Virus record (IMG/VR): IMGVR_UViG_3300030330_002422
Location: 3,574 to 67,573 of that record
Strand: one strand, 5' to 3'
Length of the DNA stretch: 64,000 nucleotides
Source: a virus
Taxonomy: Duplodnaviria; Caudoviricetes
The position numbers were made by a program, and so were the translations under genes. A model generated the notes under the pieces. The model ran no database searches. It was not told the origin of the DNA and was given only the letters and a program-made list of their open reading frames with translations. Positions 11,301 to 64,000 of the stretch are shown here, piece after piece. Numbering within the stretch: position 1 is the first letter of the stretch; each line of letters begins with the position of its first letter.

Positions 11301-14300
11301 ACAGTTACAGAATCTAAGTTTGTTTGATTACCTATATTAGCCACTCTAAAACAACAATAGTCATTACCTATAACAAAACCAGTTCCCAACGCGTTGTTCT
11401 CTACGTTTAAATCTTGACCATCGTATAGCTTTTGATACTCTGGCCAACCAAAAGCCCAGGCTTGATCTATACAAAACTTTTGATTACCCTCTTGGTAATC
11501 ATCACATCGCCAGTGACTTCTTTTCCAAGTACCACCAGTAGCGGGTTTATAATAATCAGCGCCTGTTTGTGTCCAGTGAGAAGTACCCGCATCATAATCA
11601 CCAAAATAAGGATTAGCTATTAGTCTATGGCTAGCTGAAGGATCAACAGGGTTTAAATCGTATATTCTACCGTCCCAATCGTTACCATCTGGATCTGAAA
11701 TCCAACCATCATGACCAAATATAGCTTGGTAGAAAAACGAATAATGAGTGTTTGGTGATACACTATTTAGGCTACTATTGTGTCTAGCGTTAACTCCGTT
11801 GTAAACACCTTCATTCAAAGTGTCATTAACATTGCTCTTCCAATAAAATAAAGATTTATTTCTTAATGTAAAGTCACCATCTTTTCCATCTTCTGTAGCT
11901 GAACCCGTGTAAGCAGATAAACTTCTAATGTTTTTGTCAAAAGTATGAGCCCAAAACACATTAGCTGCAGCTGTTACTAGTGTGTTAGTTGAAGCTGCTG
12001 ATTGGTTTTTATCAGATATTCTTTTTAAAATTTCAGCGTCTTTTTTAATTTTAACAAAAAATCGACCTTCAAAAGCGTCGCTATCAACTCTGTCAGACTC
12101 CTCGTAGTACTCTAAAAACAAACCTTTATTCTCAGGGTTAGAATCATTGTGGTTTCCAACAAAACCTACATCAGCACCAAAAGGCTCTATCAAAGTAAAC
12201 TCGTAGTAATCTTCAGCATCAGAGAAGTCTACATCTGTAGAAGAAGCTGATTCGTTAACTCTACTAACACTTAGTATCTCGTAAAAACTAGTCATTGAAA
12301 CAACCTCGTTGTTATCTTCTTTACCTATTTTTATAAACCTACCAGTTTGATCGTCCATTAAAGCACCTCTTGGTTCTACACCTTCAATATCTGGTTGTGC
12401 TAAAAACGAATGATTATGAACATCGTTACCAGCTATTCTAAATGTTGTTTTACCAACCTGAGGAAAACCAACAGCTGTTGCTGTAAACTGCAAACTTTGA
12501 CCGTTTTCAGCATAAACCCTTTCGCCTAATTGTCTTTTTACAAACTTAACAAAGTCTGGGGCCGATCCTTCTTTGGCTAATATTTTGTATCTACTTTTAT
12601 CTACTATACTTTTATCACCGTCGTGTTCTTTTTTAAGTATAATGTAATCATCTCTTTCTACTTTATCAAAATCAGAAGAAGCAAAAGACATCCATATATG
12701 CTCGTCATCATCATCATAATAATGTCTATCTAAAGACAGGTTGTAATACTCTGTAGCAGCATCTTTTACGTAATACTTAACGTGTGTAGCCCAGTCTGGC
12801 GTGTCTCCATTAACATTAGCAACTATAGTGTTAGCTGTTAAAGAGTTTTCTTTTTGTATTTTTACAACTCCGTTAGGTGTAGAAAACACAGGTGTTTGTC
12901 TACCATACTGATCTATGTAAGATATTCCTACTTGGTAGTTTCTAATAGACTTTATTGATTTGTTAGTTTGTTTTGGATCTATATATCTAGAGCTCAAAGA
13001 TGCGCTAACCTGTGGTAACTCATTATCTAATATGTTATATTGTTGTGTGTAGTTACCGTATATTAATCTATTAGAAGATATTTCTTGTGCTTTGGCTTTT
13101 TTAGGAACATTATCAAAGTGTCTTAACAATTGAGAGCTTTCTAACAAACCTTCATACTGTTCACTTGTTATAACGTAGTCAGTTAAATTTGTTAACTCGT
13201 CACCTCGTATACTAGCGAACTTGTATATGTTAGTGCTATCACTATCTTTAACTAATATATCTAATTGTTTTACTCTAGAAGGTTTTGTTTCAAAGTTTCC
13301 AAGGGTTATACGTCTAACCGTATTTAACATAGACTTATTATAAGAATCTATAGCATCGAACTCATACTCATCACCTGGTAAAAAAGCAACCTCTGTAAAC
13401 GGTGACATAGCAGAGTACTCGCCATCAGCGTATCTCCATCTGTAAGCAAATCTTGGAAATCTAAACTTGTATATAGACTCTAGTTCTGTTAATTCAGCGT
13501 CCCAATACCTAGCTGTCTCATTATCTAATTTTACAATGTCATCGCTAATAGAAAGTATTTCACACTCAAATGTAGATCTTTCTTCATTAGAACCATAGTT
13601 ACCGTAATCGCTTTGGTTAACCGTAATAGGATATAGTTTCAAATTGCTTATATGTCCCCTAAAAAAAGCGTTATCATCTCCGTTTAAAGTTTGACCACTG
13701 TTTGAACCTGCTGTCGATAGATTTCCTTGACTATCTACTATAGTACCTCTATCACAGTAAATTCTAAAACTTGTTGAGCTTTTTCTAGCTGTAAAAAACA
13801 CTCTATGAGTACCTACGGTAGAAGGTAACAATAAATTATAATAACCATCACCAACGTGTGTACCATGTATGGCCGATAAATAAAGTTTACCATGCTTAGT
13901 CTCATTATCACCGTCGCTACTAGTTATAGTATATTCTAACTCGTATGTTTTTAAACCTTCTATCTGAAAGTTAGTATCGTTTCCATCTTCGTTATAAGCA
14001 ACCCAACCAGCCTGGTGTTGCGTGTAGTAATTAGCGTATAAGTAGCCATTGGTAGAATTCGTGCTTTGTGGTATAGACCAAACAAGTCTATCAGAGCCAC
14101 TAGTTGTTAAATCTGTATACTCTTTTTTTTCTGCACTCCAATATAAATAACAATTGTTTGGAGTGGATAAAGCACCAGGGCCAGGAAGTGCAGCATCAGC
14201 GTGTATCATATTTGCTCCTCTGCTATAACCTGAGTTTAAATCAAGCGGTGCTGAATACCCATAAGTAGAACCAGCGTATTCTAAACCTGTTTTTTCTTTT

Positions 14301-17300
14301 TTAAGCTTTACTTGAATCTGAACAGCAGAGTCTGTTTGGTTAGTTAATTTTACAATATCTCCTTCTGCAAAGTTTGGCTTAGGAGAGAAAGATAAATCTT
14401 GTATTCTAACTGGTCTAGCACCGTAATATTGTATAGATATATTTGATATTCTAGCCGTAACACCTTTATGGCAAAATATAGGTATCATATTTTGGCCATT
14501 GTAATAACTAGAAGCAGTGTTGTTTATATTGTCAGGTAAATCCGATTGATCGTTAAAATAAGTACCCACAATATATGTACCAACACCAGAAGACTTAGGC
14601 GCTCTTTGATAGGTGCTTAAACCGTTGTTTCTACCACTGTTAGTAGGATCTCCAAAACCAACTGGATAAACATTTGTAGTTCCAGGTATATAAACAGAGG
14701 CGTCTATATCTATTATTTCTACTGTAGCCCTTATAGTAACATGTGTTCCTTTTCCAGCTCCATTAACTTCGTTTAGATTATAAACTATATTATCTACATA
14801 TCTATAATCGGACGCTGTATAACTAGCGTCTTTAGTGTGTTCGTAACCAGCCTCTACACCAACCCAACCTGGACCGAAATCTTGCGCTCTACTTTGAAAG
14901 TGAAACAAACCTTGTTGTGTTTCTGTTTCTAATTTAGGAAATATCCAAGGAACATCTCCAACATAATCTCTTAACCATCTACCTTGTTTGTCTAGCTTAG
15001 GCGTGTTACTTGTTCCTGGTGGCTTTGGAACTATCTCGTTTGTTTCTTCGTGTTTATATGTCCAAAAACTAGTATTGTTAAAACTATCCCAAACAAAAAA
15101 CATTAGAATATCTCCTTCTTGTGGTATGTAGGCGTTACCATCTTCAAAGTATTCGTCTCTCCAGGGGTGTACTGTAACAACACCTTGTTCACTCATGTAG
15201 TGTGTTGTGCCAATGAATTTAACGTAATAATCGGAGCTCGCGTTTCCAAACGCATTAGGTGTAAGAGCGTATACATTATAATAACCTCTACTACCATTCA
15301 TCAAGCTTCTAAACTTTTTATAACCGTTATCAGCAGCGCCTGGTAAATCTCTAATATCCATAGCTTTTTGCCAAATGTTAGGATCGGTACTCCAACTACC
15401 ATGTAATGGGTATCTAGTACCTTGACCTGAGTCTTTTGGATTTGCCCAAGGAGTAACGTTTGTAACATCTAAATGAATTTCATAACTTCTTGACCAGTAA
15501 CCATCACTATTTCTAGGGTTTTTCTTCATCAAGCTCGCACCGTTATACAAGGTAGCTTTTGTGTTGTCGCCGCCAACAGCACTACCAGCCTCAGTACTAT
15601 TAAAACCATCATCAAAATCATAAAACACTATCAGGTTGTTAGTAAAATTAACGTAAGAACCACCGTCGTCTTGAGTTACATCAAAATGGTATTTACTTTT
15701 ACGCAAAGCTAAACAAGCTGACTCAGGTAAATCTGTATTCCAAAGAGCTAAATCGTCTATATTACCTTTTAAGTAGTCACTTAAAGAAGAACCACCATCA
15801 TACTCAGCACCTATAGTCCAGTTTTTATCTGTACTTGCGTTTTCATCAAGAGTAACATTTAAAGTAGTATCTATAGCTAAAACACCTTCTATGTAAAGCT
15901 TTACCTCTGTAGTACTGCTGACCTCCTTGAACGTAGCAACTACGTGATACCATTTTTTCTCTTCTATAGGGAAGTTATTACTGTCAGCGCTCACGCCTTG
16001 ATCATTAAGGTTTACATGCCAAGCGTGGTTTGGTTGCGAGTAAGCACCAATTATAAGCTGGTTGCCACCACCGCTATTGTTTCTACCTATTATAGCTCTA
16101 TTCGACGAGCCTAACTCGTCAAACTTAACCCAACAAGCAAAAGTAAAAGTGTTACCAACAACTATAGATTTATCAAACTGAGCATATTGATTTGATCCGT
16201 CTAAATATAAAGAATGATTTGGTTTGTAACCCTTAAAAGCCGTATAAGCGTTTGCCCAACCGGCTCTTCTTTTAATTTTAGCAAAAACAGGTTGATTATT
16301 CATTTCTAAACCAGCAGAACCATAAAGATGTGATCTATTATAAGAATACGTTGTATTTGCTGGGTGAACACATATAGATTTACTCTTTGCGTTTATATTA
16401 GGCTCACCGTGAACAGTATCACTTAAACTAATAGATGGGGCATTTAAAGGGTATTTTTTTATAACTGTTATGTGTTTTTCTAACACATCTCCAATAACCT
16501 CGTTATTATAACTTCTTTGTTTAGTTGTGGTTGTCCAGTTTAACTTTTCATCTTGACTACCAGTTATGTTTTTGTTAGACCCACCTTTAAAATGATCTAT
16601 AGATATTTTTTTAGGTTCGTTCTCACCGTCAGTCCAGAAAAGCATACCATCAAGTATGTTTATACCTGTTATTTGATTTCCGTTAAATTTTAAGAAGGCA
16701 GACTCTTCATCTGTTGATGCATCTACTAAAACAGGTTCTGTCTCTTCTGTTTTAAAATCATACTCAGCAATACAATTTACGTTTTTCTTTTTAATAGAAA
16801 CCCTATCTATAGTGGTTTCGTCCCAATAAAATTGACTTGGAGACGATCCGTGACTAGAATTTATACCTATCAACAAATCTGTATCACCAGCTGTAAAAGT
16901 ATAAGATACACTACCAACAGCATTACTGTTAGGTATTGTTGGATATGTAAAAACACCGTTAACTGTTTTTCTAATAAACAACTCTTTATGAGTTCCTGTG
17001 GAATTACTAGCGCTAGTGTTAATAGATGTAACATCAAATGTCAACGTGTACTCTTTACCTACCTCAAGTATTTCTTTTTGTTGTATAAAAGGAGTTGTGT
17101 TAACCTGTGTTCCATCTTTTCCAAGAGTAAGGTTTCCGTTAACAGTATCAACAGTAACGTTTTCTTTATCGAAACCATTCCAATTAGTTAAACCATTTGG
17201 ATCAGCTTGACCATCATTAAAGTTTCCGTTTTTTATTATTTCTTCTCTTTGACCATAAACAAACCAGTATATCTTATCGTTAGCATTGTCAACAATAGAA

Positions 17301-17506
17301 CCAACACATTTAGACTTACCTATATAAGGTGATACACTAGACTTTGAGGTATTACCATAAGTATTTTGTAAAGCCCCAACGTCAGAACCTTTAGATGTAG
17401 AAACCTCTATGTTTAAAGCGTCTCTATACTCGTTTTTTTGAACTAGTCTTTCGTCGAGGTCCTTGTTCATCTTCCCCGACATAAATGTATTTTTAATCTC
17501 CGGCAT
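8342..17506 (-). CDS. tail stabilisation/nozzle (muzzle)-type protein, 3054 aa, with inserted LamG and CBM-like modules
   Basis: N-terminus MPEIKNTFMSGKMNKDLDERLV..NEYRDALNIEV and C-terminal DYGISKNPESFASFG..YFTDKARGSVLRLSMDGLTEIS match crAss-like/P22 gp10-like stabilisation proteins. LamG motif (FTFACWVKF..WYHVVATF..LYIEG..GNIDDLALWN) at about 15600-16215. Confidence 0.75.
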   Translation of the reverse strand: MPEIKNTFMSGKMNKDLDERLVQKNEYRDALNIEVSTSKGSDVGALQNTYGNTSKSSVSPYIGKSKCVGSIVDNANDKIYWFVYGQREEIIKNGNFNDGQADPNGLTNWNGFDKENVTVDTVNGNLTLGKDGTQVNTTPFIQQKEILEVGKEYTLTFDVTSINTSASNSTGTHKELFIRKTVNGVFTYPTIPNSNAVGSVSYTFTAGDTDLLIGINSSHGSSPSQFYWDETTIDRVSIKKKNVNCIAEYDFKTEETEPVLVDASTDEESAFLKFNGNQITGINILDGMLFWTDGENEPKKISIDHFKGGSNKNITGSQDEKLNWTTTTKQRSYNNEVIGDVLEKHITVIKKYPLNAPSISLSDTVHGEPNINAKSKSICVHPANTTYSYNRSHLYGSAGLEMNNQPVFAKIKRRAGWANAYTAFKGYKPNHSLYLDGSNQYAQFDKSIVVGNTFTFACWVKFDELGSSNRAIIGRNNSGGGNQLIIGAYSQPNHAWHVNLNDQGVSADSNNFPIEEKKWYHVVATFKEVSSTTEVKLYIEGVLAIDTTLNVTLDENASTDKNWTIGAEYDGGSSLSDYLKGNIDDLALWNTDLPESACLALRKSKYHFDVTQDDGGSYVNFTNNLIVFYDFDDGFNSTEAGSAVGGDNTKATLYNGASLMKKNPRNSDGYWSRSYEIHLDVTNVTPWANPKDSGQGTRYPLHGSWSTDPNIWQKAMDIRDLPGAADNGYKKFRSLMNGSRGYYNVYALTPNAFGNASSDYYVKFIGTTHYMSEQGVVTVHPWRDEYFEDGNAYIPQEGDILMFFVWDSFNNTSFWTYKHEETNEIVPKPPGTSNTPKLDKQGRWLRDYVGDVPWIFPKLETETQQGLFHFQSRAQDFGPGWVGVEAGYEHTKDASYTASDYRYVDNIVYNLNEVNGAGKGTHVTIRATVEIIDIDASVYIPGTTNVYPVGFGDPTNSGRNNGLSTYQRAPKSSGVGTYIVGTYFNDQSDLPDNINNTASSYYNGQNMIPIFCHKGVTARISNISIQYYGARPVRIQDLSFSPKPNFAEGDIVKLTNQTDSAVQIQVKLKKEKTGLEYAGSTYGYSAPLDLNSGYSRGANMIHADAALPGPGALSTPNNCYLYWSAEKKEYTDLTTSGSDRLVWSIPQSTNSTNGYLYANYYTQHQAGWVAYNEDGNDTNFQIEGLKTYELEYTITSSDGDNETKHGKLYLSAIHGTHVGDGYYNLLLPSTVGTHRVFFTARKSSTSFRIYCDRGTIVDSQGNLSTAGSNSGQTLNGDDNAFFRGHISNLKLYPITVNQSDYGNYGSNEERSTFECEILSISDDIVKLDNETARYWDAELTELESIYKFRFPRFAYRWRYADGEYSAMSPFTEVAFLPGDEYEFDAIDSYNKSMLNTVRRITLGNFETKPSRVKQLDILVKDSDSTNIYKFASIRGDELTNLTDYVITSEQYEGLLESSQLLRHFDNVPKKAKAQEISSNRLIYGNYTQQYNILDNELPQVSASLSSRYIDPKQTNKSIKSIRNYQVGISYIDQYGRQTPVFSTPNGVVKIQKENSLTANTIVANVNGDTPDWATHVKYYVKDAATEYYNLSLDRHYYDDDDEHIWMSFASSDFDKVERDDYIILKKEHDGDKSIVDKSRYKILAKEGSAPDFVKFVKRQLGERVYAENGQSLQFTATAVGFPQVGKTTFRIAGNDVHNHSFLAQPDIEGVEPRGALMDDQTGRFIKIGKEDNNEVVSMTSFYEILSVSRVNESASSTDVDFSDAEDYYEFTLIEPFGADVGFVGNHNDSNPENKGLFLEYYEESDRVDSDAFEGRFFVKIKKDAEILKRISDKNQSAASTNTLVTAAANVFWAHTFDKNIRSLSAYTGSATEDGKDGDFTLRNKSLFYWKSNVNDTLNEGVYNGVNARHNSSLNSVSPNTHYSFFYQAIFGHDGWISDPDGNDWDGRIYDLNPVDPSASHRLIANPYFGDYDAGTSHWTQTGADYYKPATGGTWKRSHWRCDDYQEGNQKFCIDQAWAFGWPEYQKLYDGQDLNVENNALGTGFVIGNDYCCFRVANIGNQTNLDSVTVSGTLSGDVLYARGANTFDDFSLTSEFFNDIKVVKALTTTGTKFRWSNDPTNTIYTVKKVVATGKVKNYHNVEQVLNFGDLVDWNTAQAYQTADHSAAINGKFVADYGLSYHPASSMQWGMHSRSNQGYRIALMLDKDIVWSPTSSSYGGGQTPLKRLDELESDTANHLAYASLEIISSGASGDGGYSTDNPAIFEVEPIDNTDFNLYYEASNTSMILKTGMSVEALNNENINDGGGNYLGVSDVGTPYAPGGTVLLANAKIVVDRPGEFYIDNNTWDPNSGQLPAGITLRVSKKDANGIIEYHEDFITKTGISNSIGDNLIDNDEFTLGVNGLQDYELSSGLTADNSAGNGVIIETGTNTSTYPFLRTGPIPLISGEAYQVDIDVEEINNDVFDSVSGEHTIKYFLIGSENGSYRPLKTETLKQGLNTRLFVFDQSQNEDSNGNPVSSGYLFVAELVNIKGTYKRVHIKSVSVRLMGDTVDVSDRPVRWHNCYTFGNGVESDRLRDDFNAVKIDKGPKVSTTLDEPYEEENRKNGLIYSGLYNSKTGFNKLNEFIMADKITKDVNPEYGSLQKLFSRNTDLVAFCEDKVLRILSNKDALYNADGNPQVVASNAVLGQAVPFSGDYGISKNPESFASFGYRAYFTDKARGSVLRLSMDGLTEISAAGMSRYFKDNLHEAETLIGSYDQDKDLYNLTINKKQNYDDKGDTISFAESTVGWTSFKSFLPESAVSLNGVYYTFKNGDIWKHNDNEIRNNFYGVQYESSVKFLFNDAPSVVKDFKTLGYEGSNGWRATSIETDMDSGQVVEFKDKEGKKFANIIGVEVDETNISLNSKSTQGLGLLSSITMGGYGKFYPLVISGVINNINAKFTLNTSATEAQSITSSITNNYEEGTTVGVSQEVTHEFYIHPKTINGLNYAVAASNFTVTSSDNNRVSVVAATDTGTPGDKENKIKITLKVEYNSNNLFPSSEQAITITVDGSTTLAIN

Positions 17507-30784: not shown

Positions 30785-31171
30785 TTATTTTTTTACTTTT
30801 TCTAGTGAACGTCCTCCAAAATAAGCACCGATCACAGTGATTAATACTAATTGTAAAAGATCTACCCAAGAAGCTTTAACTTCAAAAGATATAACTCCAG
30901 CGTCTATAAATATCAACAACACTGTTGACACACATAAGAATATTAAAACTAATGGTCTTATGTTTTTAGACAACCAAGAATCAGACTGCATATCAACCTT
31001 CCATCTTTCGGTTACTTGCTTTTGCATTTCAGCTTCGTAACCCATTATCATATCTTTTATTTTCTTTTCAGCTTCAAGCTTTTCTTCTTTAGAAGTGTGG
31101 AGATTGTCTATAACACTCCCCACACCTTTAACTAGTTCTGCAGCTCCGCCACCAAATATTTTATCTAACAT
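30785..31171 (-). CDS. holin (3TM/GTA-type)
   Basis: ERWKVDMQSDSWLSKNIRP followed by two hydrophobic helices and GAYFGGRSLEK, typical of the 3TM holin family. Confidence 0.75.
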   Translation of the reverse strand: MLDKIFGGGAAELVKGVGSVIDNLHTSKEEKLEAEKKIKDMIMGYEAEMQKQVTERWKVDMQSDSWLSKNIRPLVLIFLCVSTVLLIFIDAGVISFEVKASWVDLLQLVLITVIGAYFGGRSLEKVKK

Positions 31172-31181
31172 AATTTATTTT

Positions 31182-32033
31182 TTAAACTAATCTATCTCTA
31201 TTAGCTGTACGTCTACGCCTTGTAGGTCTTTTTATATTTTTACCTAAAACCTGAGTTCTGTTTCTACCTCTTTTTTTAACACTAGCATCTTGCTCCATGT
31301 TAGCAAAAGTGTTTTTACTCCAGTCTCTAGTAGATCTTTTAGCATACTCTGGAGCAGCTGGTTTTGGAGGTGGAGGTGGTTTTACAATTAAAGGTTTTTT
31401 AACTGGAGCTTTAGGTCTTTTACCTTTTAAAACGCTACTAACAGCTTTACCTAAACCACCTACTACTCCACCAGCAACTTTACCTACTCCTTTAGTTACT
31501 TTACCAGCAGTTTTTAAAACGCCTGATACTAAACCTTTTTTACCAAGAACACCTTTAGTTACTCCTTTAACCACTTTGCCAGCTCCTTTGAATATACCAC
31601 TTATAGCGCCAAACAACCCTCTTTTTCTTCTTCTTTTCTTTTTACCAACGGTTGTTGATTTCATGTTCTTCATCTGCTTTGCTAAAGGAGACCCTGCAAC
31701 CGAAGCTGTTACACTACCAACCTTACCAGCTGTTTTTAAAGCGCCACCAGCAACCTTGCTACCAGTCTTAGCAACAGTCCCAACAGCTTTACCAACGCCT
31801 TTTGCAATACCACCTATAGCTCTACTTATTGAACCGAATAAACCTCTTCTTCTTTTTCTTTTCTTTTTAGGAGCAGCTTTAGATAATTTTTTTGATTGAG
31901 ATACTTTACTAGCAACATCTTTTTTAGCTACAGCGGTATTTATACCACCAACAACTGGCTTGTTAGCTGCTATGGCTCTTGAAGCTCTTGCTTTAGCTCT
32001 AGCTTGCTTTTTACGTCTTCTTCTTCCTCCCAT
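31182..32033 (-). CDS. highly basic Lys/Arg/Gly-rich protein with amphipathic repeats
   Basis: 283 aa; two copies of KKKR(K/R)R(R/K)R-GLFG(S/A)IS followed by G/K/V amphipathic repeats. Confidence 0.6.
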   Translation of the reverse strand: MGGRRRRKKQARAKARASRAIAANKPVVGGINTAVAKKDVASKVSQSKKLSKAAPKKKRKRRRGLFGSISRAIGGIAKGVGKAVGTVAKTGSKVAGGALKTAGKVGSVTASVAGSPLAKQMKNMKSTTVGKKKRRRKRGLFGAISGIFKGAGKVVKGVTKGVLGKKGLVSGVLKTAGKVTKGVGKVAGGVVGGLGKAVSSVLKGKRPKAPVKKPLIVKPPPPPKPAAPEYAKRSTRDWSKNTFANMEQDASVKKRGRNRTQVLGKNIKRPTRRRRTANRDRLV

Positions 32034-54921: not shown

Positions 54922-54946
54922 AAAAGGGGCGAAAGCCCCTTTTTTT
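54922..54946. terminator. bidirectional rho-independent terminator
   Basis: AAAAGGGGC-GAAA-GCCCCTTTTTTT between the converging gene arms. Confidence 0.9.
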
Positions 54947-55415
54947 ATTTCATTTCCTCGTGAATATAAGCGGTTCTACCAAACTCTTTTTTAGCTATAG
55001 TTAGCTTTTTTCTATTTGGCCTATGTGTAACGTAACTTACGTGAACCCAATTAGGATTTTCATTATCACCAAACTCCCATATTAACTGATCAAAGTCTAA
55101 ATGATCTTTTATAAAATGATACATTTCAGCATTGGTCATTCTACCAAACGTATCATCAATATCCATAGCTTGACCTTTCATGTGTTGAGAGTATTTACTT
55201 CCACCAATAGCTGTGTTAACTGGCTCGCCTCTAAAAAAACTATTTATTTTTATTGGCCCGCCAACATAAGCTCTTAATGGTTCAAATATATTTTCAGCAA
55301 CTTCTTTCATACATTTTAATTGCTCTTCATTTGGTGTGTTGTCTAAGCCTTTTCTTTCAGCTGTTCTGCTATACACACCTTCTTTATAACTAACGTGTTT
55401 ACTTATTCTTTCCAT
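54945..55415 (-). CDS. endolysin, peptidase M15A family
   Basis: INSFFR..N..IGGSKYSQHMKGQAMDI..FDQLIWEF..WVHVS. Confidence 0.88.
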   Translation of the reverse strand: MERISKHVSYKEGVYSRTAERKGLDNTPNEEQLKCMKEVAENIFEPLRAYVGGPIKINSFFRGEPVNTAIGGSKYSQHMKGQAMDIDDTFGRMTNAEMYHFIKDHLDFDQLIWEFGDNENPNWVHVSYVTHRPNRKKLTIAKKEFGRTAYIHEEMK

Positions 55416-57495: not shown

Positions 57496-59688
57496 TTAAT
57501 TTTTAATTATCGTTTTATTTATTATTTTATCTTCGTAATTTATACGTAACATATACACCCCAGAACTCATTTTAGATACATCTAAGACATTTACGTTCTT
57601 TTTAGATATAATTACATCTCCGATATAGTTAATTACGTCTATATCAACGTTTTTACTAATGTTGATTTTACTGTTAGTTGGGTTAGGATATACAGAAAGA
57701 GAGTTGTAGTCTAATCTTGAAACAGGTTGAGGACCTGTCCAACCCTCGTAACAATAGTTGTAAGTTAGTTGGCATATATTATCCCACTCATTATCGCAAC
57801 AATAAGCATCAACATCTATTACCCAAGCATAACAAGGATCGTTCAACCAGTATGGTATACTGTCACCTGTTACACAGCCAGCGCTGTACAAGCAAGACTC
57901 TGGATTATCTATGTTTGCGAGTTCGTTATAGTTGTAAGCATTTTGATCCATACACCCTTCAACCACCGCAACACACGATCCATTATCTGTATTGGCTTCT
58001 GGATTGTAATTAATAGCAGTAGAATCGGTACAGCCATAAATATAAGGTATGCAACTAAAATCTTCTGTATTGGCTTGCGGATTATAGTTAAGCATGCTAG
58101 GGTCGGTGCAACCAAAGATAAATGGTACACAGGAATTATTGTCAACATTTGCTAAGGGATTGAAATTAAACATAGTACTATCCATGCAACCATAAACAAA
58201 AGGCTCACAAGAACCATTGTCTATGTTCGCTGTAGGATTATAATTAAACATAGTAGCATCAGTACAACCATATACAATTGCTATACACGAACTATCATCA
58301 ACATTTGCGAGAGCGTTATAGTTAAAAGCGTTTGGATCTGTACAGCCTGGTATCGGTAGTATACAAGAGTTATCATCAACGTTTGCTAAAGTATCGTAGT
58401 TTAAAGCTATAGGATTTGTGCAACCTTCAACAATCGCGATACACGTGTCATTAACATTTGCATTTGGATTATAGTTAAACGCTAAAGGGTTCATACAACC
58501 ATAAACAACAGCAATACAAGAGTTAGGTATTTCCACATTAGCGTTTGGGTCATAGTTTAAAGCTGTGCTATCCATACAACCTAAAACAACCAATGTAACA
58601 CAACTACCATCGTCATAATCAGCTATTGTATCATACTCTAAATAAAGTGGGTTCATACACCCAGGGTTGTAATAACAACTACCATCGTCTGTGTTAGCTA
58701 AAGTATCATAGTTTATAGCCGCAGTATCTATACAACCAAATATTTTTTCTACACAAGTATTACCGCAGTAAGGTTCTCCTATAATAGGAAAAAATGGTGG
58801 TATAGGATTTACAAATCCACCTTCAATATCTATAGCGACATAATCTTCTGAGTACAAACTATAACCACACTGTACAGCTGTAAAGTCTGATTGCTGTGTA
58901 ATTTCAAACACCGCTCTAACAGGGTAACCAGCTGCTAGATTTATAAAAAACGTAGTGTCAAAACCATCTATTAAGGTATAAGTTCCAAGATCTTGATAGT
59001 TAAAAGGTGGTATTAAACTAGTTGCTTGTGATATCTTTAAGCTAGATCCAGCCCAACCATTACCAGCTAAATCTGTTAGTTCTAACTCGTGCATACAGCT
59101 ATCAATGTTAATATCTGTATTAGCTGAGTCTATATAATTATAAGCTAGTGAGTCTGTGCAGCCATATATTTTAGAAATAAAACACATACCCGTGTCTAGC
59201 GTAGCAGCAGGATTAAACTCTACATAGCTCGTGTCCATACACCCAAAAACCGGTGGTGGAGGTGGACAACCAGATGTATATATTGTGTCAAATATTTGAT
59301 AACCAAAATTAGCAACAGGTAGTTCCCATATAGTATCGCCACACTGTTCTATATACACAGAGCCATCGTTACCGCCCCACAAACTACCAGCAATACCATC
59401 TCCATACAAATCATTTATAACAATGTAAAAGCTATCGATAGGCGCACAAGCAGAAGCGTATTGTGGTTCATAATCAATTATATTAGTATAAGGCCCACCG
59501 CTTATGAGAGTGTCTCCGCTAAAATCTACAATATACCAAGACGTTTCTTCTGGATATTGATCTGGGTTTATAGTAATATTTAAGCTCCATGTACTAGGTG
59601 GACATTGTCCAAATGCCGTGCTAATTGAAAAAACTAAAAACATTAATATAATATATATATAACTTGATATGTCTTTTTTTACTTCCAT
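57496..59688 (-). CDS. secreted Cys-repeat protein with Sec signal peptide and type IX secretion (T9SS) C-terminal sorting domain
   Basis: Signal KK-YIYIILMFLVFSIS-TAFG/Q; 13 GC(M/T/I)(D/N)...NY...A..D..SC repeats; C-terminus LSVYPNPTNSKINI..LDVSKMSSGVYMLRI..KTIIKN. Confidence 0.85.
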   Translation of the reverse strand: MEVKKDISSYIYIILMFLVFSISTAFGQCPPSTWSLNITINPDQYPEETSWYIVDFSGDTLISGGPYTNIIDYEPQYASACAPIDSFYIVINDLYGDGIAGSLWGGNDGSVYIEQCGDTIWELPVANFGYQIFDTIYTSGCPPPPPVFGCMDTSYVEFNPAATLDTGMCFISKIYGCTDSLAYNYIDSANTDINIDSCMHELELTDLAGNGWAGSSLKISQATSLIPPFNYQDLGTYTLIDGFDTTFFINLAAGYPVRAVFEITQQSDFTAVQCGYSLYSEDYVAIDIEGGFVNPIPPFFPIIGEPYCGNTCVEKIFGCIDTAAINYDTLANTDDGSCYYNPGCMNPLYLEYDTIADYDDGSCVTLVVLGCMDSTALNYDPNANVEIPNSCIAVVYGCMNPLAFNYNPNANVNDTCIAIVEGCTNPIALNYDTLANVDDNSCILPIPGCTDPNAFNYNALANVDDSSCIAIVYGCTDATMFNYNPTANIDNGSCEPFVYGCMDSTMFNFNPLANVDNNSCVPFIFGCTDPSMLNYNPQANTEDFSCIPYIYGCTDSTAINYNPEANTDNGSCVAVVEGCMDQNAYNYNELANIDNPESCLYSAGCVTGDSIPYWLNDPCYAWVIDVDAYCCDNEWDNICQLTYNYCYEGWTGPQPVSRLDYNSLSVYPNPTNSKINISKNVDIDVINYIGDVIISKKNVNVLDVSKMSSGVYMLRINYEDKIINKTIIKN

Positions 59689-59954
59689 TCTTCTTTTCGT
59701 AATTCGTTTGTAATTTGCTCGTGTGTTAATATTCTTTTATCTTTAACAAAATCAGGTTTAGTAGCAATAGATATTATAGCTTTTGTTTTGTCTTTATTAT
59801 ATCTAAGGCTTTTGTCGCTGTTTTCGTTTATTAAATTAAAATCTAAATGTTTTAAATATGGTTTAGCCCAACTAGCTATAGGCTTTTTCCAATTCCACTT
59901 AACGTTTATTATTACGTAAAACGCTCTTGTTCTTTTGTTGTTTACTCCTTGCAT
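59679..59954 (-). CDS. small tail-associated protein
   Basis: LDFNLINENSDKSLRYNKDKTK..P.F..LTHEQI..EEW pattern, a type seen next to LamG genes in marine phages. Confidence 0.45.
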   Translation of the reverse strand: MQGVNNKRTRAFYVIINVKWNWKKPIASWAKPYLKHLDFNLINENSDKSLRYNKDKTKAIISIATKPDFVKDKRILTHEQITNELRKEEWK

Positions 59955-60760
59955 TATGTACTTGGTGTATCTGATGAAGATTTAGCTCCGTTTTGTAACC
60001 TAATAGCATTACCACCCTCGTCTGGGTTTTTTTTATCTGGAACAGTTACGTTAGGTACAGTTCCAGTCATGCTTTCTGGAAGATACAAAGCTGTAACAAA
60101 ATTACTTCCTAAATAATAATTCGTATTGGTGTTAAAATTAAACTGGTTTTGAGCGTAGTATATTTGCTTTATAGCAGTCTCTGGTAGGTAAGAATTAAAA
60201 AAACAAGTATCACCAATCAAACAAGTATGATGGCTTTGAAATGTTTCACCCCAACCAGAACTACCATCAAGCTCAGCGCCAAACACTATTCTGCTAAAAG
60301 CTGTGCCTTGCGTCCAGTTAGTGGCTGGAACAGATACAGGGCCATTATTAGCCTTGCTTCCGTTTATATAAAGCTCACCCGACCAATTATTACCATCTAT
60401 GTAACCTATTTGGACGTGAACGTTATACCAAACACCATAATCAATAGCAGTACCATCTAGAGTAGTGTAATTATTTACTGGCACGTCAAAATCAAGCTGT
60501 AGCTTGCTAGAACTGTTTAACGATACCTTTATCCAATAATTTTCCTCAGTATCTGAAACTTGAATAACAGTACCAGGGGTTGCGTTTTTATCTTTATTGT
60601 ACCAAAAGTTAAACGCAATACCACGAGCATCAGTAGCAGGTCTCAATGTTTCGTGAAAGGCTACAATACCATTATCATTTACACCATCAAAGATCATGCT
60701 TAATTTATTACCCATTATTCTTTGTGGCATGGGCGGCATACATCTACCTAATCCTAACAT
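59954..60760 (-). CDS. LamG/concanavalin A-like lectin domain protein
   Basis: SMIFDGVND..IAFNFWY..GVWYNVHV..ELYING..IVFGA..IGDTCFFN. Confidence 0.75.
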   Translation of the reverse strand: MLGLGRCMPPMPQRIMGNKLSMIFDGVNDNGIVAFHETLRPATDARGIAFNFWYNKDKNATPGTVIQVSDTEENYWIKVSLNSSSKLQLDFDVPVNNYTTLDGTAIDYGVWYNVHVQIGYIDGNNWSGELYINGSKANNGPVSVPATNWTQGTAFSRIVFGAELDGSSGWGETFQSHHTCLIGDTCFFNSYLPETAIKQIYYAQNQFNFNTNTNYYLGSNFVTALYLPESMTGTVPNVTVPDKKNPDEGGNAIRLQNGAKSSSDTPST

Positions 60761-60761
60761 A

Positions 60762-61091
60762 TTAAAAATCGCTTAATATTATTTCGCTAATAGCTTCTTG
60801 CACTTCTTTTTTTGTTGCCACCATTTTAAAAGATAAATCTGCTTGAAACCTAGCAACTTCTTCACCATCTTTAAATATTATTATAGTAGGTATAACAGCG
60901 ATTTTATATTTACTCTGTGCTTTAACGTCTTTGGCAACGTCTATATATTTTACATTTTCAACATCTGAAAGCTTTGTAACCCAACTAACTTTGTTAGCAG
61001 AGTTCCATTCAGCATTAAAGCTTTTTATTGTTATTTGTGAAAAACTATTTAAACAAAAAAACAATAAAATTGTTGTAATAAATTTACTCAT
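60762..61091 (-). CDS. exported thioredoxin-fold protein lacking CxxC
   Basis: Signal peptide ..LLFFCLNSFS/Q; SFNAEWNSAN replaces WCxxC; YIDV..KYKIAVIPTIIIFKDGEEVARF (cis-Pro loop). Confidence 0.75.
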   Translation of the reverse strand: MSKFITTILLFFCLNSFSQITIKSFNAEWNSANKVSWVTKLSDVENVKYIDVAKDVKAQSKYKIAVIPTIIIFKDGEEVARFQADLSFKMVATKKEVQEAISEIILSDF

Positions 61092-61369
61092 TATTGGTAT
61101 ATTTTTTGTTCAATTTTTTCTAATGTAGCTTTTATTTCAGTTACATCTTCTTGTGTGTTCATGATAGTGTTACGTATCATTTGATCTTTCATATCAAACT
61201 CCATACGTGTTACTTCTGGATCAGGGGCTACAGGCAGTTCTTTTGCCTCTGCAATATCTGCTTGAAGTGTAAACCACATACCAGTCATCGTTACTAATAC
61301 CACACCTAGTGAAATTATAGTCTCTAGGCTTAATTTTACCTTTGTTGCTTTACTTATTTCTGTTGCCAT
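61091..61369 (-). CDS. single-pass membrane protein with coiled coil
   Basis: TM IISLGVVLVTMTGMWFTL; C-terminal heptads; TAATG coupled to the thioredoxin-fold gene. Confidence 0.6.
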   Translation of the reverse strand: MATEISKATKVKLSLETIISLGVVLVTMTGMWFTLQADIAEAKELPVAPDPEVTRMEFDMKDQMIRNTIMNTQEDVTEIKATLEKIEQKIYQ

Positions 61370-61387
61370 TTTATTACTATTTATACA

Positions 61388-62437
61388 TTAAAAGATTACA
61401 TAATTAATACCACACTTAAAGTCATACCACTCTCTGTTCCAGTACTTATTATATTTACCTTCTATGAACATTCCTAAATGTTTATTTATTTTGGTTCCTA
61501 CTATTAAACCACCTGAATAATCATACCACTGACCATCTACATAGTTGTGATAACTAAACTCACCACCATCATCGTAGTGCCAAGGCATAAAATTAGCCCA
61601 ACTATGAGCCCAAAACGTTTTTGTATAGTGGTAAAAATCAAAACCAACAACCACAGATTGTTGCATTTTATCGTCTAATTCATTTCTTTTTCTTTCAGTA
61701 TAATCAGAAAGTACTTGTGGTATAACTACCGCCTCCCAAACTTCAGGGCTATTAGCCACTAAATAACCGTTTGGATCATAATATTCACTCTCAAATACAT
61801 CAATGTTGTAACCTTCTTGTATTGCTAAGTATGTATAATGTATATCTCCATTGCTTAGCTTCCACTCTTCAAGAGGATCGTAACCATAAGGCTCTGATAA
61901 CCTTTGTACAACACCAGCATTAAAAGATAGCTTACTGTTTACTTTATACCTTAACCTTTGTGACGTTTCAAAATATTTTATATCAGCAAAACCATCTTGT
62001 AGATATTCACCTTTTAAAATATAATTGTTAGCAGCATATCTTAAAAAGTGGTGTTGATCAAGATACTCTACACCCTCTTGTCTTTTCATGTCAACTTGGA
62101 ATAAGTATTCTAAACCTTTTGTTTTACCAACATTAGCAGCGTCACTGTAATTAGACTCTGTACCATCGTAAAACGTATTAGCTCTATTTTCGTAACCAAA
62201 CCTAGCTATTTTACGTATACCCATTGTTAGGTTGTAGTCATAAGGTGTTTTTATAGTAGTTGTTGTTAAGCCGTTTGTTACAGAAAACACATCAACATCA
62301 GATATAGATGTACCTCCGTTAGCAGCTACGTAAAACGTAGAAAACTTTAATGGTTTAAAATTTTGAGAGCAACATTTTTTAGGAGCCGAACAAGCTACTA
62401 AAATTACTAAAATAATTATTGTTAAAAATTTCTTCAT
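61388..62437 (-). CDS. putative outer-membrane beta-barrel protein with signal peptide/lipobox
   Basis: MKKFLTIIILVILVAC; many alternating aromatic/hydrophobic strands (YNLTMGIR, YLFQVDM, LSFNAGV, HLGMFIEGKY); ends FKCGINYVIF, a beta-signal-like terminus. Confidence 0.65.
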   Translation of the reverse strand: MKKFLTIIILVILVACSAPKKCCSQNFKPLKFSTFYVAANGGTSISDVDVFSVTNGLTTTTIKTPYDYNLTMGIRKIARFGYENRANTFYDGTESNYSDAANVGKTKGLEYLFQVDMKRQEGVEYLDQHHFLRYAANNYILKGEYLQDGFADIKYFETSQRLRYKVNSKLSFNAGVVQRLSEPYGYDPLEEWKLSNGDIHYTYLAIQEGYNIDVFESEYYDPNGYLVANSPEVWEAVVIPQVLSDYTERKRNELDDKMQQSVVVGFDFYHYTKTFWAHSWANFMPWHYDDGGEFSYHNYVDGQWYDYSGGLIVGTKINKHLGMFIEGKYNKYWNREWYDFKCGINYVIF

Positions 62438-62442
62438 ATTTA

Positions 62443-64000
62443 TTATCTATTACGTCTTTTTCTTACATCTCTTCTTCTTGGTGCAGGAGTCGATGGTTCC
62501 TTTCTTCTTGACCTTTGGTTTTTAAAATCAGGTTCACCATAACTCTTCTTTTTCTTCTTTTTCTTTTCTTTTATATCTTCTTTTATTTGTTCTATTTTTT
62601 CGTTTTTAAGACCAAGGTTCCACTTGCTCCAACCACCAAACATTAAAGCTCTTTGCATAGCTGTATGTTGACTATCTAGTGCGTCTCTAACATTCACGGT
62701 TTTGTTGTACAACCTGTTAAGAGGTACGTTTGTAATAGCCTCAATGTAGCTTGTGGTTGCTGACCACATAGGATTATCGATGTCAAAAGTGCTCATTTCA
62801 TCAATAACCTTTTTATTATAGTTTAATGTTTTTTCAGCATTAACTATTTTTCTAGCCTTGATACCAAGTGGAGGTGAAACATTTAACATCTCCATTAAAA
62901 CAGCACTTTCGTCCTTGTTGTAACCCTTATCTCTTTGCTCATGCCATTTTATAGCCATGTTTTTTAAAGTAGCAACAGCCGCACCCCAAACACCAGCACC
63001 TCTTAAAACAGAGTCAATACTACCGCTTATCATACGTTCTTTCTTTTTTAAGAACTGTTCGTCATCTTCGTCGTCATCAAACATAACTGCAAACAAAGCT
63101 GATTGCAAAGCATAGAACACTAAGTTTTGTATAACAAAATAATAAGCTATTCTAGACAAGTTTGATAAATCACTTTGTAACTGCGTAGTATTACCAGGTG
63201 TTATTCTTCTATTTTTAATATCTAAAAATGCTTTTTTACCTAACCTATTAAACTGTGAGGTTACGTTTTGGAAAGCGAGTATAACCTTACCAAGAGGTGA
63301 AGCTTGTTGTTGCGATACCATGTCAGGTCTTGCAGACTGCTGAGTTGATTCGGCTAATATAACAAAATCAGTCCAAGCTCTTTCCTCAGCTTGTTTTTGA
63401 CTTAACCCTTGTTTTAAATAAGTGTTAACTCTGTTTCTAAAAAACGAAGCACCACCCGTAGCTATAGCTATATTATCACCTATTTGTGTCGGTAAAAAAC
63501 CTATTTGCAATAATTTTTTTATTACAGCTTGAGCTGGGTTTTTAGCGTTTCTAACAGACGCTGCTAGTTCAGCACCGTTGACATCTGTCATTATACCACC
63601 TCTTCTTTGTTTCATGAAGTCTGAGTTAAATATATAAGCCCAGTCTTTCCAATATTGATCTTGATTAGCAAAAGCTTTAGCAGCTGCTAGTATGTTGTTG
63701 TCAGCAAAGTTTATAAAGTTAACCATAGACATTTGCTGTAAAACGGCAGAACGTATGTTAAAGAACATTGTCGATGCAACAGATCCGTTTAAGTAATTTA
63801 AAAACTTGTTTACTAAAGCGTTCGAACCACTAGGCCTGTTTTTACCAGTCTTAGTTCTATAAAGAATATCTTTTATAGCTTCGACAACCTCTGCCCCGTA
63901 AGCAGCTTCTATTTTGTTTAAATTTTCTTTTGAAAATATAATGTCAGCATTTTCAAAAAACTCTTCAAAAAATTCTGCTCTACCAACTCTACCGGTAGCG
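62443..64000 (-). CDS. C-terminal >=519 aa of a giant virion/ejection protein (enters from right edge)
   Basis: Frame is open from 63999 (ATGRVGRAEFFEEF...YLNGSVASTMFFNIRSAVLQ) to the stop at 62443; the ORF-track start at 63768 is internal. Confidence 0.8.
   Translation of the reverse strand, partial: ATGRVGRAEFFEEFFENADIIFSKENLNKIEAAYGAEVVEAIKDILYRTKTGKNRPSGSNALVNKFLNYLNGSVASTMFFNIRSAVLQQMSMVNFINFADNNILAAAKAFANQDQYWKDWAYIFNSDFMKQRRGGIMTDVNGAELAASVRNAKNPAQAVIKKLLQIGFLPTQIGDNIAIATGGASFFRNRVNTYLKQGLSQKQAEERAWTDFVILAESTQQSARPDMVSQQQASPLGKVILAFQNVTSQFNRLGKKAFLDIKNRRITPGNTTQLQSDLSNLSRIAYYFVIQNLVFYALQSALFAVMFDDDEDDEQFLKKKERMISGSIDSVLRGAGVWGAAVATLKNMAIKWHEQRDKGYNKDESAVLMEMLNVSPPLGIKARKIVNAEKTLNYNKKVIDEMSTFDIDNPMWSATTSYIEAITNVPLNRLYNKTVNVRDALDSQHTAMQRALMFGGWSKWNLGLKNEKIEQIKEDIKEKKKKKKKSYGEPDFKNQRSRRKEPSTPAPRRRDVRKRRNR

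What the first reader, a model, noticed from the sequence alone, without database searches (positions are those of the whole stretch)
59679..62437. Exported-protein cassette (outer-membrane beta-barrel, membrane protein, CxxC-less thioredoxin) upstream of the T9SS cargo: candidate phage envelope-remodelling system
Seen: contiguous co-oriented genes encode a 349-aa protein with lipobox/signal (LVAC or CCS/Q), amphipathic strands and terminal Phe; a 92-aa single-pass coiled-coil protein; an exported thioredoxin fold with WNSAN in place of WCxxC; then LamG, a small protein and the T9SS cargo. Three of these carry host-type signal peptides. Established: some T9SS substrates need dedicated barrels (PorV, SprF/PorP), and redox-inactive thioredoxin folds act as chaperones. 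Inference: a dedicated export/anchoring apparatus (barrel as adaptor or pore, thioredoxin fold as chaperone for the roughly 30-Cys cargo). Alternatively the barrel and membrane protein could bridge the membranes in lysis. I know of no described phage system with this architecture.
Basis: partly seen in the sequence, partly recalled or inferred. Interest (0 to 1): 0.85.

Follow-up and report, generated by a model that had tools for sequence, protein, structure and literature searches.

The report
Phage envelope trio linked to lysis
An uncultured marine phage of flavobacteria-like hosts encodes an outer-membrane barrel, an inner-membrane coiled-coil protein and an inactive periplasmic thioredoxin; this trio recurs in thousands of ocean phage sequences, usually beside the lysis genes rather than a secretion cargo, so it may be an undescribed way of breaking the host outer membrane.

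Summary
On the minus strand, 61388-62437 encodes a signal/lipobox protein that folds as a 12-stranded outer-membrane barrel. 61091-61369 encodes an N-in single-pass coiled-coil protein. 60762-61091 encodes an exported thioredoxin fold whose CxxC is deleted.

Barrel, membrane protein and thioredoxin form a near-obligate trio: complete in 63/64 close and 54/54 distant loci. The Cys-rich cargo lies nearby in only 2 of 12 barrel clades, and only about a quarter of its homologues carry a recognisable T9SS tail. The LamG-like gene and the 91-aa gene are not conserved.

In 9 of 12 barrel clades the trio lies within 700 nt of an endolysin or holin. In this phage it shares the late operon that ends with the endolysin. 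The genome has no other lipoprotein or spanin candidate.

My best reading (about 0.5) is a three-part, envelope-spanning lysis module acting on the outer membrane.

No family in Pfam, PHROGs or NCBIfam covers the barrel. Four barrel queries found no match in 50,697 phage records. Function is untested.

This scan has reached the same trio and a similar reading before on other DNA.

The parts
61388..62437 (-). g349: exported 12-stranded outer-membrane beta-barrel. It has a lipobox (LVAC16), a PKKCCSQ linker and a C-terminal ...NYVIF. There is a large insert at 182-256, and a conserved, poorly modelled loop at 77-107.
61091..61369 (-). g92: type II (N-in) single-pass inner-membrane protein with a periplasmic part of about 55 aa that is Pro-rich and then coiled-coil. 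Its topology is like that of an i-spanin.
60762..61091 (-). g109: periplasmic thioredoxin-fold protein. The signal peptide follows the Bacteroidota Q-rule. The CxxC is deleted (FNAEWNSAN), the cis-Pro is kept, and the C-terminus ...MSDF is conserved. Its start overlaps the g92 stop (ATGA).
59954..60760 (-). g268: LamG/ConA-like accessory protein without a signal peptide. It is a variable insert, not part of the conserved module.
59679..59954 (-). g91: small basic protein of unknown role, found in 1 of 86 related loci.
57496..59688 (-). g730: Sec-signal, Cys-rich repeat protein with a type A T9SS C-terminal domain. It is a clade-specific neighbour of the trio.
54945..55415 (-). Peptidase_M15_3 endolysin, the last gene of the same minus-strand late operon.
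54922..54943 (.). G+C-rich hairpin followed by a T run, immediately after the endolysin stop. It is the likely end of the late transcript.
30785..31171 (-). Holin (phrog_3427, E 2e-31). In other clades its homologues lie directly beside the trio.
62443..63999 (-). C-terminal part of a giant protein of about 2840 aa. It continues across the contig junction into the gene at window 2-3490 and ends 5 nt before the g349 start.

Best explanation
The conserved unit is three genes: an outer-membrane barrel (g349), an inner-membrane N-in coiled-coil protein (g92) and a redox-dead periplasmic thioredoxin fold (g109). I read it as a lysis-associated, envelope-spanning module of marine Bacteroidota phages. 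It most likely performs the last step of lysis, disruption of the outer membrane, in the place that spanins occupy in other phages.

Shown here: the folds and export signals, the near-obligate co-occurrence of the three genes, their position in or next to lysis cassettes, and late co-orientation with the endolysin.

Inferred: g92 anchors the complex in the inner membrane. The barrel anchors it in the outer membrane. g109 bridges or chaperones the barrel, possibly through the conserved loop 77-107, which by strand parity I place on the periplasmic side, and through its own conserved C-terminal Phe. Once holin and endolysin have removed the wall, the complex would destabilise or fuse the membranes.

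The Cys-rich T9SS protein, the LamG-like gene and the 91-aa gene are clade-specific insertions between the trio and the endolysin. They are not parts of the module.
For: - Folds: the barrel has VIA Z 12-14 to 12-stranded OM barrels. The thioredoxin fold lacks CxxC. g92 has an N-in TM segment plus a coiled-coil-like tail.
- Co-occurrence: the trio is complete in 63/64 close and 54/54 distant loci with enough flank. It is kept even when the gene order changes, barrel first or last.
- Lysis link: in 9 of 12 barrel clades (>=55% identity clusters) with usable loci, an M15 endolysin and/or a phrog_3427-type holin lies within 700 nt of the trio. Examples are L103 barrel-g92-g109-endolysin-holin, L108 barrel-g92-g109-holin-endolysin and L123 g92-g109-barrel-endolysin-holin. 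Other endolysin types follow the trio in L131 and L151.
- This phage: the trio sits in the tightly packed minus-strand late operon whose last gene is the endolysin, followed by a terminator hairpin. The holin is present at 30785-31171. g349 is the only lipobox protein, and no u-spanin-like ORF exists.
- Divergence: the trio members diverge in step with each other (distance correlations 0.71-0.86) more than with neighbouring holin or endolysin genes (0.43-0.57).
- Literature: the survey in PMC12596118 reports that Bacteroidetes phages use only unimolecular spanins. [quoted passage not shown]
Against: - No experiment exists. The evidence is synteny and topology only.
- In this window the trio is 5.3 kb from the endolysin and about 30 kb from the holin.
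- In the two largest clades a recognised lysis gene is directly adjacent in few loci: 2/62 and 3/16.
- The OM partner is a 349-aa BAM-type barrel, unlike any o-spanin.
- The g92 periplasmic part (about 55 aa) looks too short to span a periplasm on its own.
- A redox-dead thioredoxin has no precedent in lysis.
- The barrel's predicted surface insert (182-256) is highly conserved, which a pure lysis role does not explain.
- Another note on this genome proposes a cationic amphipathic protein at 31182-32033 as the OM disruptor.
- Genes unrelated to lysis can sit beside lysis genes, as lambda bor does (from my own knowledge).
Confidence: 0.5

Rival explanations
1. One reading: the barrel is a dedicated T9SS adaptor or anchor (PorV- or PorP/SprF-like), and the thioredoxin fold is a chaperone for the Cys-rich T9SS cargo encoded downstream.
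For: - In the window's own clade the Cys-rich protein lies within 4 kb of the trio in 48/52 loci.
- The cargo has a Sec signal and a type A CTD above the Pfam and NCBIfam cut-offs.
- In two loci the cargo carries the same lipobox plus PKxCCGQ N-terminus as the barrel.
- Barrel-cargo gene pairs are known for type B CTD proteins (from my own knowledge of SprB/SprF).
Against: - The cargo is near the trio in only 2 of 12 barrel clades and 2/43 distant loci.
- About three quarters of cargo homologues end in a tail that Pfam does not recognise as a T9SS CTD.
- No PorP_SprF or other Pfam/NCBIfam hit appears for the barrel family.
- The best fold matches are 12-stranded barrels; a FadL homologue scores only Z 7.5.
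- To my knowledge, type A CTD cargo needs no private barrel.
- This idea gives no role to the inner-membrane g92.
Confidence: 0.08
2. The trio is an envelope-remodelling or superinfection-exclusion device: a phage-made OM protein with periplasmic and IM partners that masks or alters a receptor, or blocks incoming DNA, and is not involved in lysis.
For: - Phage-encoded OM proteins and lipoproteins with such roles are known (lambda Lom and Bor, T5 Llp, Cor; from my own knowledge).
- The BFVD fold search lists many phage-encoded OM barrels.
- The barrel's predicted surface insert is strongly conserved.
- The family is extremely abundant, with 3815 clusters.
Against: - The genes sit in a late, structural and lysis operon of an apparently lytic phage.
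- The repeated direct adjacency to holin and endolysin in 9 of 12 clades is not expected for exclusion genes.
- There is no sequence relation to the Lom/Ail or Cor families.
Confidence: 0.17
3. The trio is lysis-related but regulatory: it sets or senses lysis timing (holin/antiholin-like, as with T4 T and RI) or controls endolysin access, rather than breaking the outer membrane.
For: - The same synteny with holin and endolysin applies.
- g92 has the N-in, one-TM, periplasmic-tail topology of class III holins, and g109 is a small secreted partner.
- Some g92 homologues carry a cytoplasmic extension of about 110 aa that could receive a signal.
Against: - A separate holin of a recognised family is present in this phage and in most cassettes.
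- A regulatory role does not explain an obligatory OM barrel.
- Nothing else in the genome could do the OM step, apart from the untested cationic protein at 31182-32033.
Confidence: 0.15
4. The barrel is an outer-membrane enzyme or channel acting alone: an OMPLA/LpxR-like lipid hydrolase, or a Tsx/KdgM-like uptake pore. The neighbouring genes would be incidental.
For: LpxR (Z 11.8), OMPLA (Z 11.1), Tsx (Z 13.1) and KdgM (Z 13.3) are among the best structural matches. Many conserved charged residues lie on the strands.
Against: - The fold similarity is generic to 12-stranded barrels.
- The nearly invariant Ser261 and His278 are out of register across their hairpin, so no triad is evident (my reading).
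- The 117/118 co-occurrence with g92 and g109 argues against a stand-alone protein.
Confidence: 0.05

Closest known systems
Two-component spanins (lambda Rz/Rz1 type; Kongari et al. 2018, PMC6139136)
   Same: There is an inner-membrane type II protein with a periplasmic coiled coil and a partner anchored in the outer membrane. The genes lie in or beside the holin-endolysin cassette, and the cassettes are mosaic, with different endolysin types.
   Different: The OM partner is a 12-stranded barrel of about 350 aa, lipidated in only some clades, rather than a small Pro-rich lipoprotein. A third, periplasmic thioredoxin-fold subunit is obligatory. g92 is short. No sequence similarity to any spanin family was found.
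phiKT gp28 cationic peptide (bioRxiv 10.1101/515445) and unimolecular spanins
   Same: They are alternative solutions to the outer-membrane step in phages that lack Rz/Rz1-type pairs.
   Different: Each is a single small protein. Here three exported proteins have defined folds in three compartments.
T9SS outer-membrane partners PorV and PorP/SprF
   Same: They are Bacteroidota OM barrels encoded near, or acting on, CTD cargo. In this clade the barrel lies upstream of a type A CTD protein.
   Different: There is no family hit. The fold matches 12-stranded barrels rather than the FadL/PorV type. The link to cargo holds in only 2 of 12 clades.
Phage-encoded T9SS cargo in 'Cryophage' (Bellas et al. 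2020, PMC7468147)
   Same: A phage of a Bacteroidota host encodes proteins with type A T9SS sorting domains, as g730 has here.
   Different: That report describes variable enzymes in flexible islands and mentions no barrel, coiled-coil or thioredoxin set.
Lambda Lom and Bor, T5 Llp (phage OM proteins and lipoproteins)
   Same: They are phage-made proteins inserted in the host outer membrane, some encoded next to lysis or tail genes.
   Different: They are single proteins of temperate phages or early genes. There is no homology, and they have no IM or periplasmic partners.
Redox-inactive thioredoxin-fold proteins
   Same: g109 keeps the fold and the cis-Pro loop but has no CxxC.
   Different: g109 forms its own viral family, with an obligatory barrel partner and a conserved C-terminal Phe. 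No such protein is known in lysis.

Membership tests
Two-component spanin (i-spanin/o-spanin) | i-spanin: N-in single TMD followed by a periplasmic coiled-coil domain | tested here: met
   g92 and 72 further homologues share the layout: positive N-terminus, one hydrophobic segment, a Pro-rich stretch, then a heptad-like charged tail. Coiled-coil character is read from the sequence and from weak coiled-coil PDB hits, not from a dedicated predictor.
Two-component spanin (i-spanin/o-spanin) | o-spanin: small outer-membrane lipoprotein with a lipobox | tested here: not met
   The OM component is a 349-aa 12-stranded barrel. A lipobox is present in only 38 of 164 distinct barrels; the rest have SPI/Q-rule signals.
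Two-component spanin (i-spanin/o-spanin) | Genes located in the lysis cassette next to holin and/or endolysin | tested here: met
   A lysis gene lies within 700 nt of the trio in 9 of 12 barrel clades. In this window the trio shares an operon with the endolysin but is 5.3 kb away.
Two-component spanin (i-spanin/o-spanin) | Sequence membership of a known spanin family | tested here: not met
   No spanin PHROG, Pfam or NCBIfam hit. g92 relatives hit only the unnamed phrog_20984 and phrog_1009.
Two-component spanin (i-spanin/o-spanin) | Required for outer-membrane disruption after wall degradation | not testable with these tools
   This needs genetics or expression in a Flavobacteriia host.
T9SS PorP/SprF or PorV cargo partner | Membership of the PorP_SprF or PorV families by sequence | tested here: not met
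   No Pfam family at E<=0.05 in any of 30 diverse barrel homologues, and none in NCBIfam for the window protein.
T9SS PorP/SprF or PorV cargo partner | Consistent pairing with a CTD-bearing cargo gene | tested here: not met
   The cargo lies within 4 kb in 48/52 close loci but in 2/43 distant loci and 2 of 12 clades. Only about 13 of 53 cargo homologues have Por_Secre_tail.
T9SS PorP/SprF or PorV cargo partner | FadL-like 14-stranded barrel fold (PorV) | tested here: inconclusive
   The best matches are 12-stranded barrels at Z 12-14. A FadL homologue scores Z 7.5. PorV itself was not among the rows shown.
Thioredoxin | Thioredoxin fold with a cis-Pro loop | tested here: met
   The profile against the PDB gives E 6e-8. 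The model has pLDDT 89.6, and the Foldseek rows shown are almost all thioredoxins or thioredoxin domains, probability 1.0. P68 is invariant in 36 sequences.
Thioredoxin | CxxC redox-active site | tested here: not met
   The WCGPC position reads W-N, with a 5-residue deletion in the profile alignment. None of the g109 homologue sequences listed shows a CxxC at that position.
Bacterial outer-membrane beta-barrel protein | Export signal, closed antiparallel barrel and a C-terminal aromatic beta-signal | tested here: met
   The signal peptide is present. The model shows 12 long strands and matches OM barrels only. 102 of 164 barrels end in Phe and 8 in Tyr.
Lom/Ail, Cor or Llp exclusion and adhesion proteins | Sequence membership of those families | tested here: not met
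   No Pfam or PHROG hit. The functional analogy cannot be tested here.

The most novel reading that the evidence does not exclude
The trio is a fourth, previously unrecognised class of phage outer-membrane-disruption machinery. It would be a three-component trans-envelope complex built on a BAM-inserted beta-barrel, an i-spanin-like inner-membrane protein and a redox-dead thioredoxin adaptor. It would be used by a very abundant set of uncultured marine Bacteroidota phages in place of spanins.
Probability: 0.45. Interest if true: 0.85.

Novelty: new variant of a known kind. Interest (0 to 1): 0.7.

Why it matters
How phages of Bacteroidota breach the outer membrane is poorly known. The survey I read reports only unimolecular spanins for them (PMC12596118), and about 15% of phages are reported to lack a spanin gene (bioRxiv 10.1101/515445).

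A barrel-based, three-compartment module present in thousands of ocean viral sequences would add a new class to the lysis toolbox. It would give a handle for annotating lysis cassettes in marine viromes. It would also explain one of the most conserved unknown gene sets in these phages.

If the lysis reading is wrong, the trio is still a very widespread phage device that places a folded barrel in the host outer membrane late in infection. That alone is worth testing.

Tried and rejected
- Virion or capsid protein mistaken for a barrel. I rejected this because of the export signals and because only OM barrels matched the fold.
- Catalytic Ser-His-Asp triad (S261, H278, D306), as in OMPLA or PagL. 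Hairpin register puts S261 opposite P285, not H278, so there is no support.
- Fused forms of the barrel. None appeared among proteins of 612-2000 aa, which is weak evidence.
- Cultured or deposited phages carrying the trio. tblastn with four barrels, g109 and two g92 variants found nothing relevant in 50,697 records. g109 hit only ordinary phage thioredoxins.
- Cellular homologues. Six MAG hits lie on short, probably mis-binned viral contigs, and a seventh on a 120-kb contig. One cellular-looking contig carries a 31%-identical protein, but 0 of 300 Bacteroidia genomes matched it.
- Searching four complete relatives for Por_Secre_tail through the genome search gave no match. The control genomes also failed the cut-off, so this is uninformative.
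- An MshEN-like reading of the N-terminal extension of two g92 homologues. Pfam does not support it.
- Sigma-70-type promoters inside the cassette are no more frequent than in shuffled sequence.
- ESM Atlas leads (DUF6850, Phage_OMP, DUF7365, DUF2730) scored at most 0.93 and hmmscan does not confirm them.

Full report
**What is there**

The window is almost the whole genome of an uncultured phage. The contig is 67,573 nt and its ends overlap by 134 nt. The portal is 43-53% identical to those of Flavobacterium, Cellulophaga, Maribacter and Tenacibaculum podophages. Relatives' contigs carry crAss-type capsid and ring Pfam families.

All genes of the finding lie on the minus strand, tightly packed or overlapping. 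In order they are:

- the C-terminus of a giant protein (62443-63999). The overlap and the repeated C-terminal peptide show that this is the end of a protein of about 2840 aa that begins in the gene at window 2-3490;
- g349 (61388-62437), g92 (61091-61369) and g109 (60762-61091);
- g268 (59954-60760) and g91 (59679-59954);
- the Cys-rich g730 (57496-59688) and g121;
- a tail-fibre-like g430 and g132;
- a Peptidase_M15_3 endolysin (54945-55415), followed by a strong hairpin terminator.

**Checking the observation**

g349 has no Pfam, PHROG or NCBIfam family, and none of 30 diverse relatives has one either. Its AlphaFold2 model (pLDDT 75, pTM 0.67) shows about twelve long antiparallel strands and a helical insert at 182-256. 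Foldseek returns only outer-membrane barrels. An independent all-against-representatives alignment gives Z 12-14 to 12-stranded barrels: the EstA and NalP translocators, KdgM, NanC and Tsx, followed by LpxR and OMPLA.

The N-terminus has a lipobox (LVAC16) followed by PKKCCSQ. C16, C22, C23 and Q25 are invariant among close relatives. Across the wider family only 38 of 164 distinct barrels have a lipobox. The rest have signal-peptidase-I sites followed by Gln, the Bacteroidetes 'Q-rule' cited in PMC10367356. 102 of 164 barrels end in Phe.

g92 is an N-in single-pass protein with a short Pro-rich stretch and a charged, heptad-like tail. It has no detectable homology to known families.

A profile of g109 hits thioredoxins at E 6e-8, with the CGPC stretch deleted after the conserved Trp. 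Its model (pLDDT 89.6) matches only thioredoxins. The cis-Pro is invariant and the C-terminal Phe nearly so.

g268 has only four database relatives, two of which carry Laminin_G_3.

**What belongs together**

The barrel has 3815 homologous 90%-clusters, mostly from marine metagenomes and viromes, and 328 hits among 50% representatives. I fetched 86 close loci (barrel 62-76% identical). I then fetched 80 distant ones (30-40% identical to the query barrel P0141, apart from a few close P0141 relatives), plus single look-ups. I scored all of them with profiles of each gene.

- Barrel, g92 and g109 are all present in 63 of 64 close loci and 54 of 54 distant loci that have at least 2.5 kb on both sides.
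- g92 and g109 are nearly always adjacent, in that order. The barrel lies before or after them.
- g268 and g91 were found in 0 and 1 of the 86 close loci.
- The Cys-rich protein is within 4 kb in 48 of 52 close loci but in only 2 of 43 distant ones.
- Of about 53 distinct Cys-rich homologues, only about 13 end in a tail that Pfam recognises as Por_Secre_tail. The others end in a different conserved tail with no family hit.

**The lysis link**

I grouped the barrels at 55% identity to avoid counting relatives many times. Twelve clades have usable loci. In nine of them an M15 endolysin and/or a phrog_3427-type holin starts within 700 nt of the trio. The cargo is linked in two.

Typical arrangements are:

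- barrel-g92-g109-endolysin-holin (L099, L103, L164, L177);
- barrel-g92-g109-holin-endolysin (L108-L110);
- g92-g109-barrel-endolysin-holin (L123, L126, L129, L141, L155).

Two loci that my two profiles scored as lacking lysis genes carry other endolysin types right after the trio (L131, L151).

In the window phage the holin is at 30785-31171 and the endolysin closes the same late operon. In rearranged members of the window's clade the order is g92-g109-cargo-barrel-endolysin (L027). Among coding-strand ORFs of this genome, g349 is the only plausible lipobox protein (the one other hit is a 42-aa basic ORF with no hydrophobic segment). Nothing has the lipobox-plus-C-terminal-TM layout of a unimolecular spanin.

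Pairwise-distance matrices of the three proteins correlate with one another (0.71-0.86, highest for barrel and g109). They correlate less with neighbouring holin or endolysin genes (0.43-0.57). Shared ancestry inflates all these values, so this is a hint only.

**Interpretation**

The conserved unit is the trio. Its three members are addressed to the outer membrane, the inner membrane and the periplasm, and its usual home is the lysis cassette. That is the position and topology logic by which spanins are recognised (PMC6139136).

I therefore read it as a lysis-associated, envelope-spanning module that most likely serves the outer-membrane step (confidence 0.5). The folds, signals, co-occurrence and synteny are shown. 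The physical complex, the role of g109 as adaptor or chaperone, docking at the conserved periplasmic loop 77-107 and the membrane-disrupting act are inferred.

There are real weaknesses:

- No experiment exists.
- The OM partner is unlike any o-spanin.
- g92 is short.
- The barrel's predicted surface insert is conserved for no obvious reason.
- In this window the trio is 5.3 kb from the endolysin.

**Comparison with what is known**

I found no description of this set. Literature searches on phage T9SS cargo, phage OM barrels and spanins in Bacteroidota phages returned nothing matching. A recent survey states that Bacteroidetes phages use only unimolecular spanins (PMC12596118). Phage-encoded T9SS cargo has been reported once, in 'Cryophage' (PMC7468147), with no mention of a barrel set.

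Four barrel queries, g109 and two g92 queries found nothing relevant in 50,697 deposited phage records. Hits in prokaryote genome collections are six MAG contigs of inconsistent taxonomy, probably mis-binned virus.

Earlier notes of this scan, on other genomes, describe the same trio and reach a similar lysis-linked reading. I derived my reading from my own synteny analysis before reading them. They are not independent evidence.

**Verdict**

I class this as a new variant of a known kind (phage trans-envelope lysis devices), with non-homologous parts and an added third subunit. Interest is 0.7.

Noticed in passing
window 62443-63999 and 2-3490 (contig junction): The contig ends overlap by 134 nt (97.8% identical). 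The two open-ended ORFs share the peptide ...FENADIIFSKENLNKIEAAYGAEVVEA..., so they are one giant gene of about 2840 aa. It has a hydrophobic segment and a poly-Lys/Arg tail and lies directly upstream of the barrel. A second giant gene (3054 aa) lies at 8342-17506.
   Followed up: partly
L007, L014 and others (homologues of window 57496-59688): The Cys-rich secreted protein family has two alternative C-termini. About 13 of 53 end in a Por_Secre_tail type A CTD. The rest end in a shorter conserved tail (...TDLLGRP..LLFYIYDDGTVEKKLIK) with no Pfam hit, possibly a degenerate or different sorting signal.
   Followed up: partly
L070:11815-14157, L075:11803-14136: In these two loci the Cys-rich protein starts with the same lipobox plus PKxCCGQ motif as the window barrel. 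The same motif recurs on barrels of distant clades (L110, L144, L161, L170). This suggests a mobile N-terminal targeting module whose vicinal Cys pair is unexplained.
   Followed up: no
L118:9092-9763, L136:6852-7475: Two g92 homologues carry a cytoplasmic N-terminal extension of about 110 aa with a poly-Pro linker. By eye it resembles an MshEN/T2SSE_N-type domain, but Pfam gave no hit.
   Followed up: partly
L100:112-1200: A barrel homologue that reads through only with TGA=W. At least one carrier of the family may therefore use a recoded genetic code.
   Followed up: no
L101:9568-10770: A 400-aa protein 31% identical to the barrel lies in a cellular-looking contig (GAPDH, flavodoxin, esterase) without g92 or g109 nearby. 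It was not found in 300 sampled Bacteroidia genomes. It may be a rare cellular relative or the source of the viral family.
   Followed up: partly
window 54922-54943: A perfect 9-bp G+C-rich hairpin with flanking A and T runs sits between the converging plus-strand genes and the minus-strand endolysin. It is a likely bidirectional terminator.
   Followed up: no
window 31182-32033: A 283-aa protein next to the holin, proposed in another note as a cationic OM disruptor. It has only a weak tape-measure PHROG hit and a sub-threshold haemagglutinin Pfam hit. If it is active, it competes with the trio for the outer-membrane role.
   Followed up: partly
L174:2403-2991: Two g92 paralogues lie in tandem between the barrel and g109 in one locus.
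   Followed up: no
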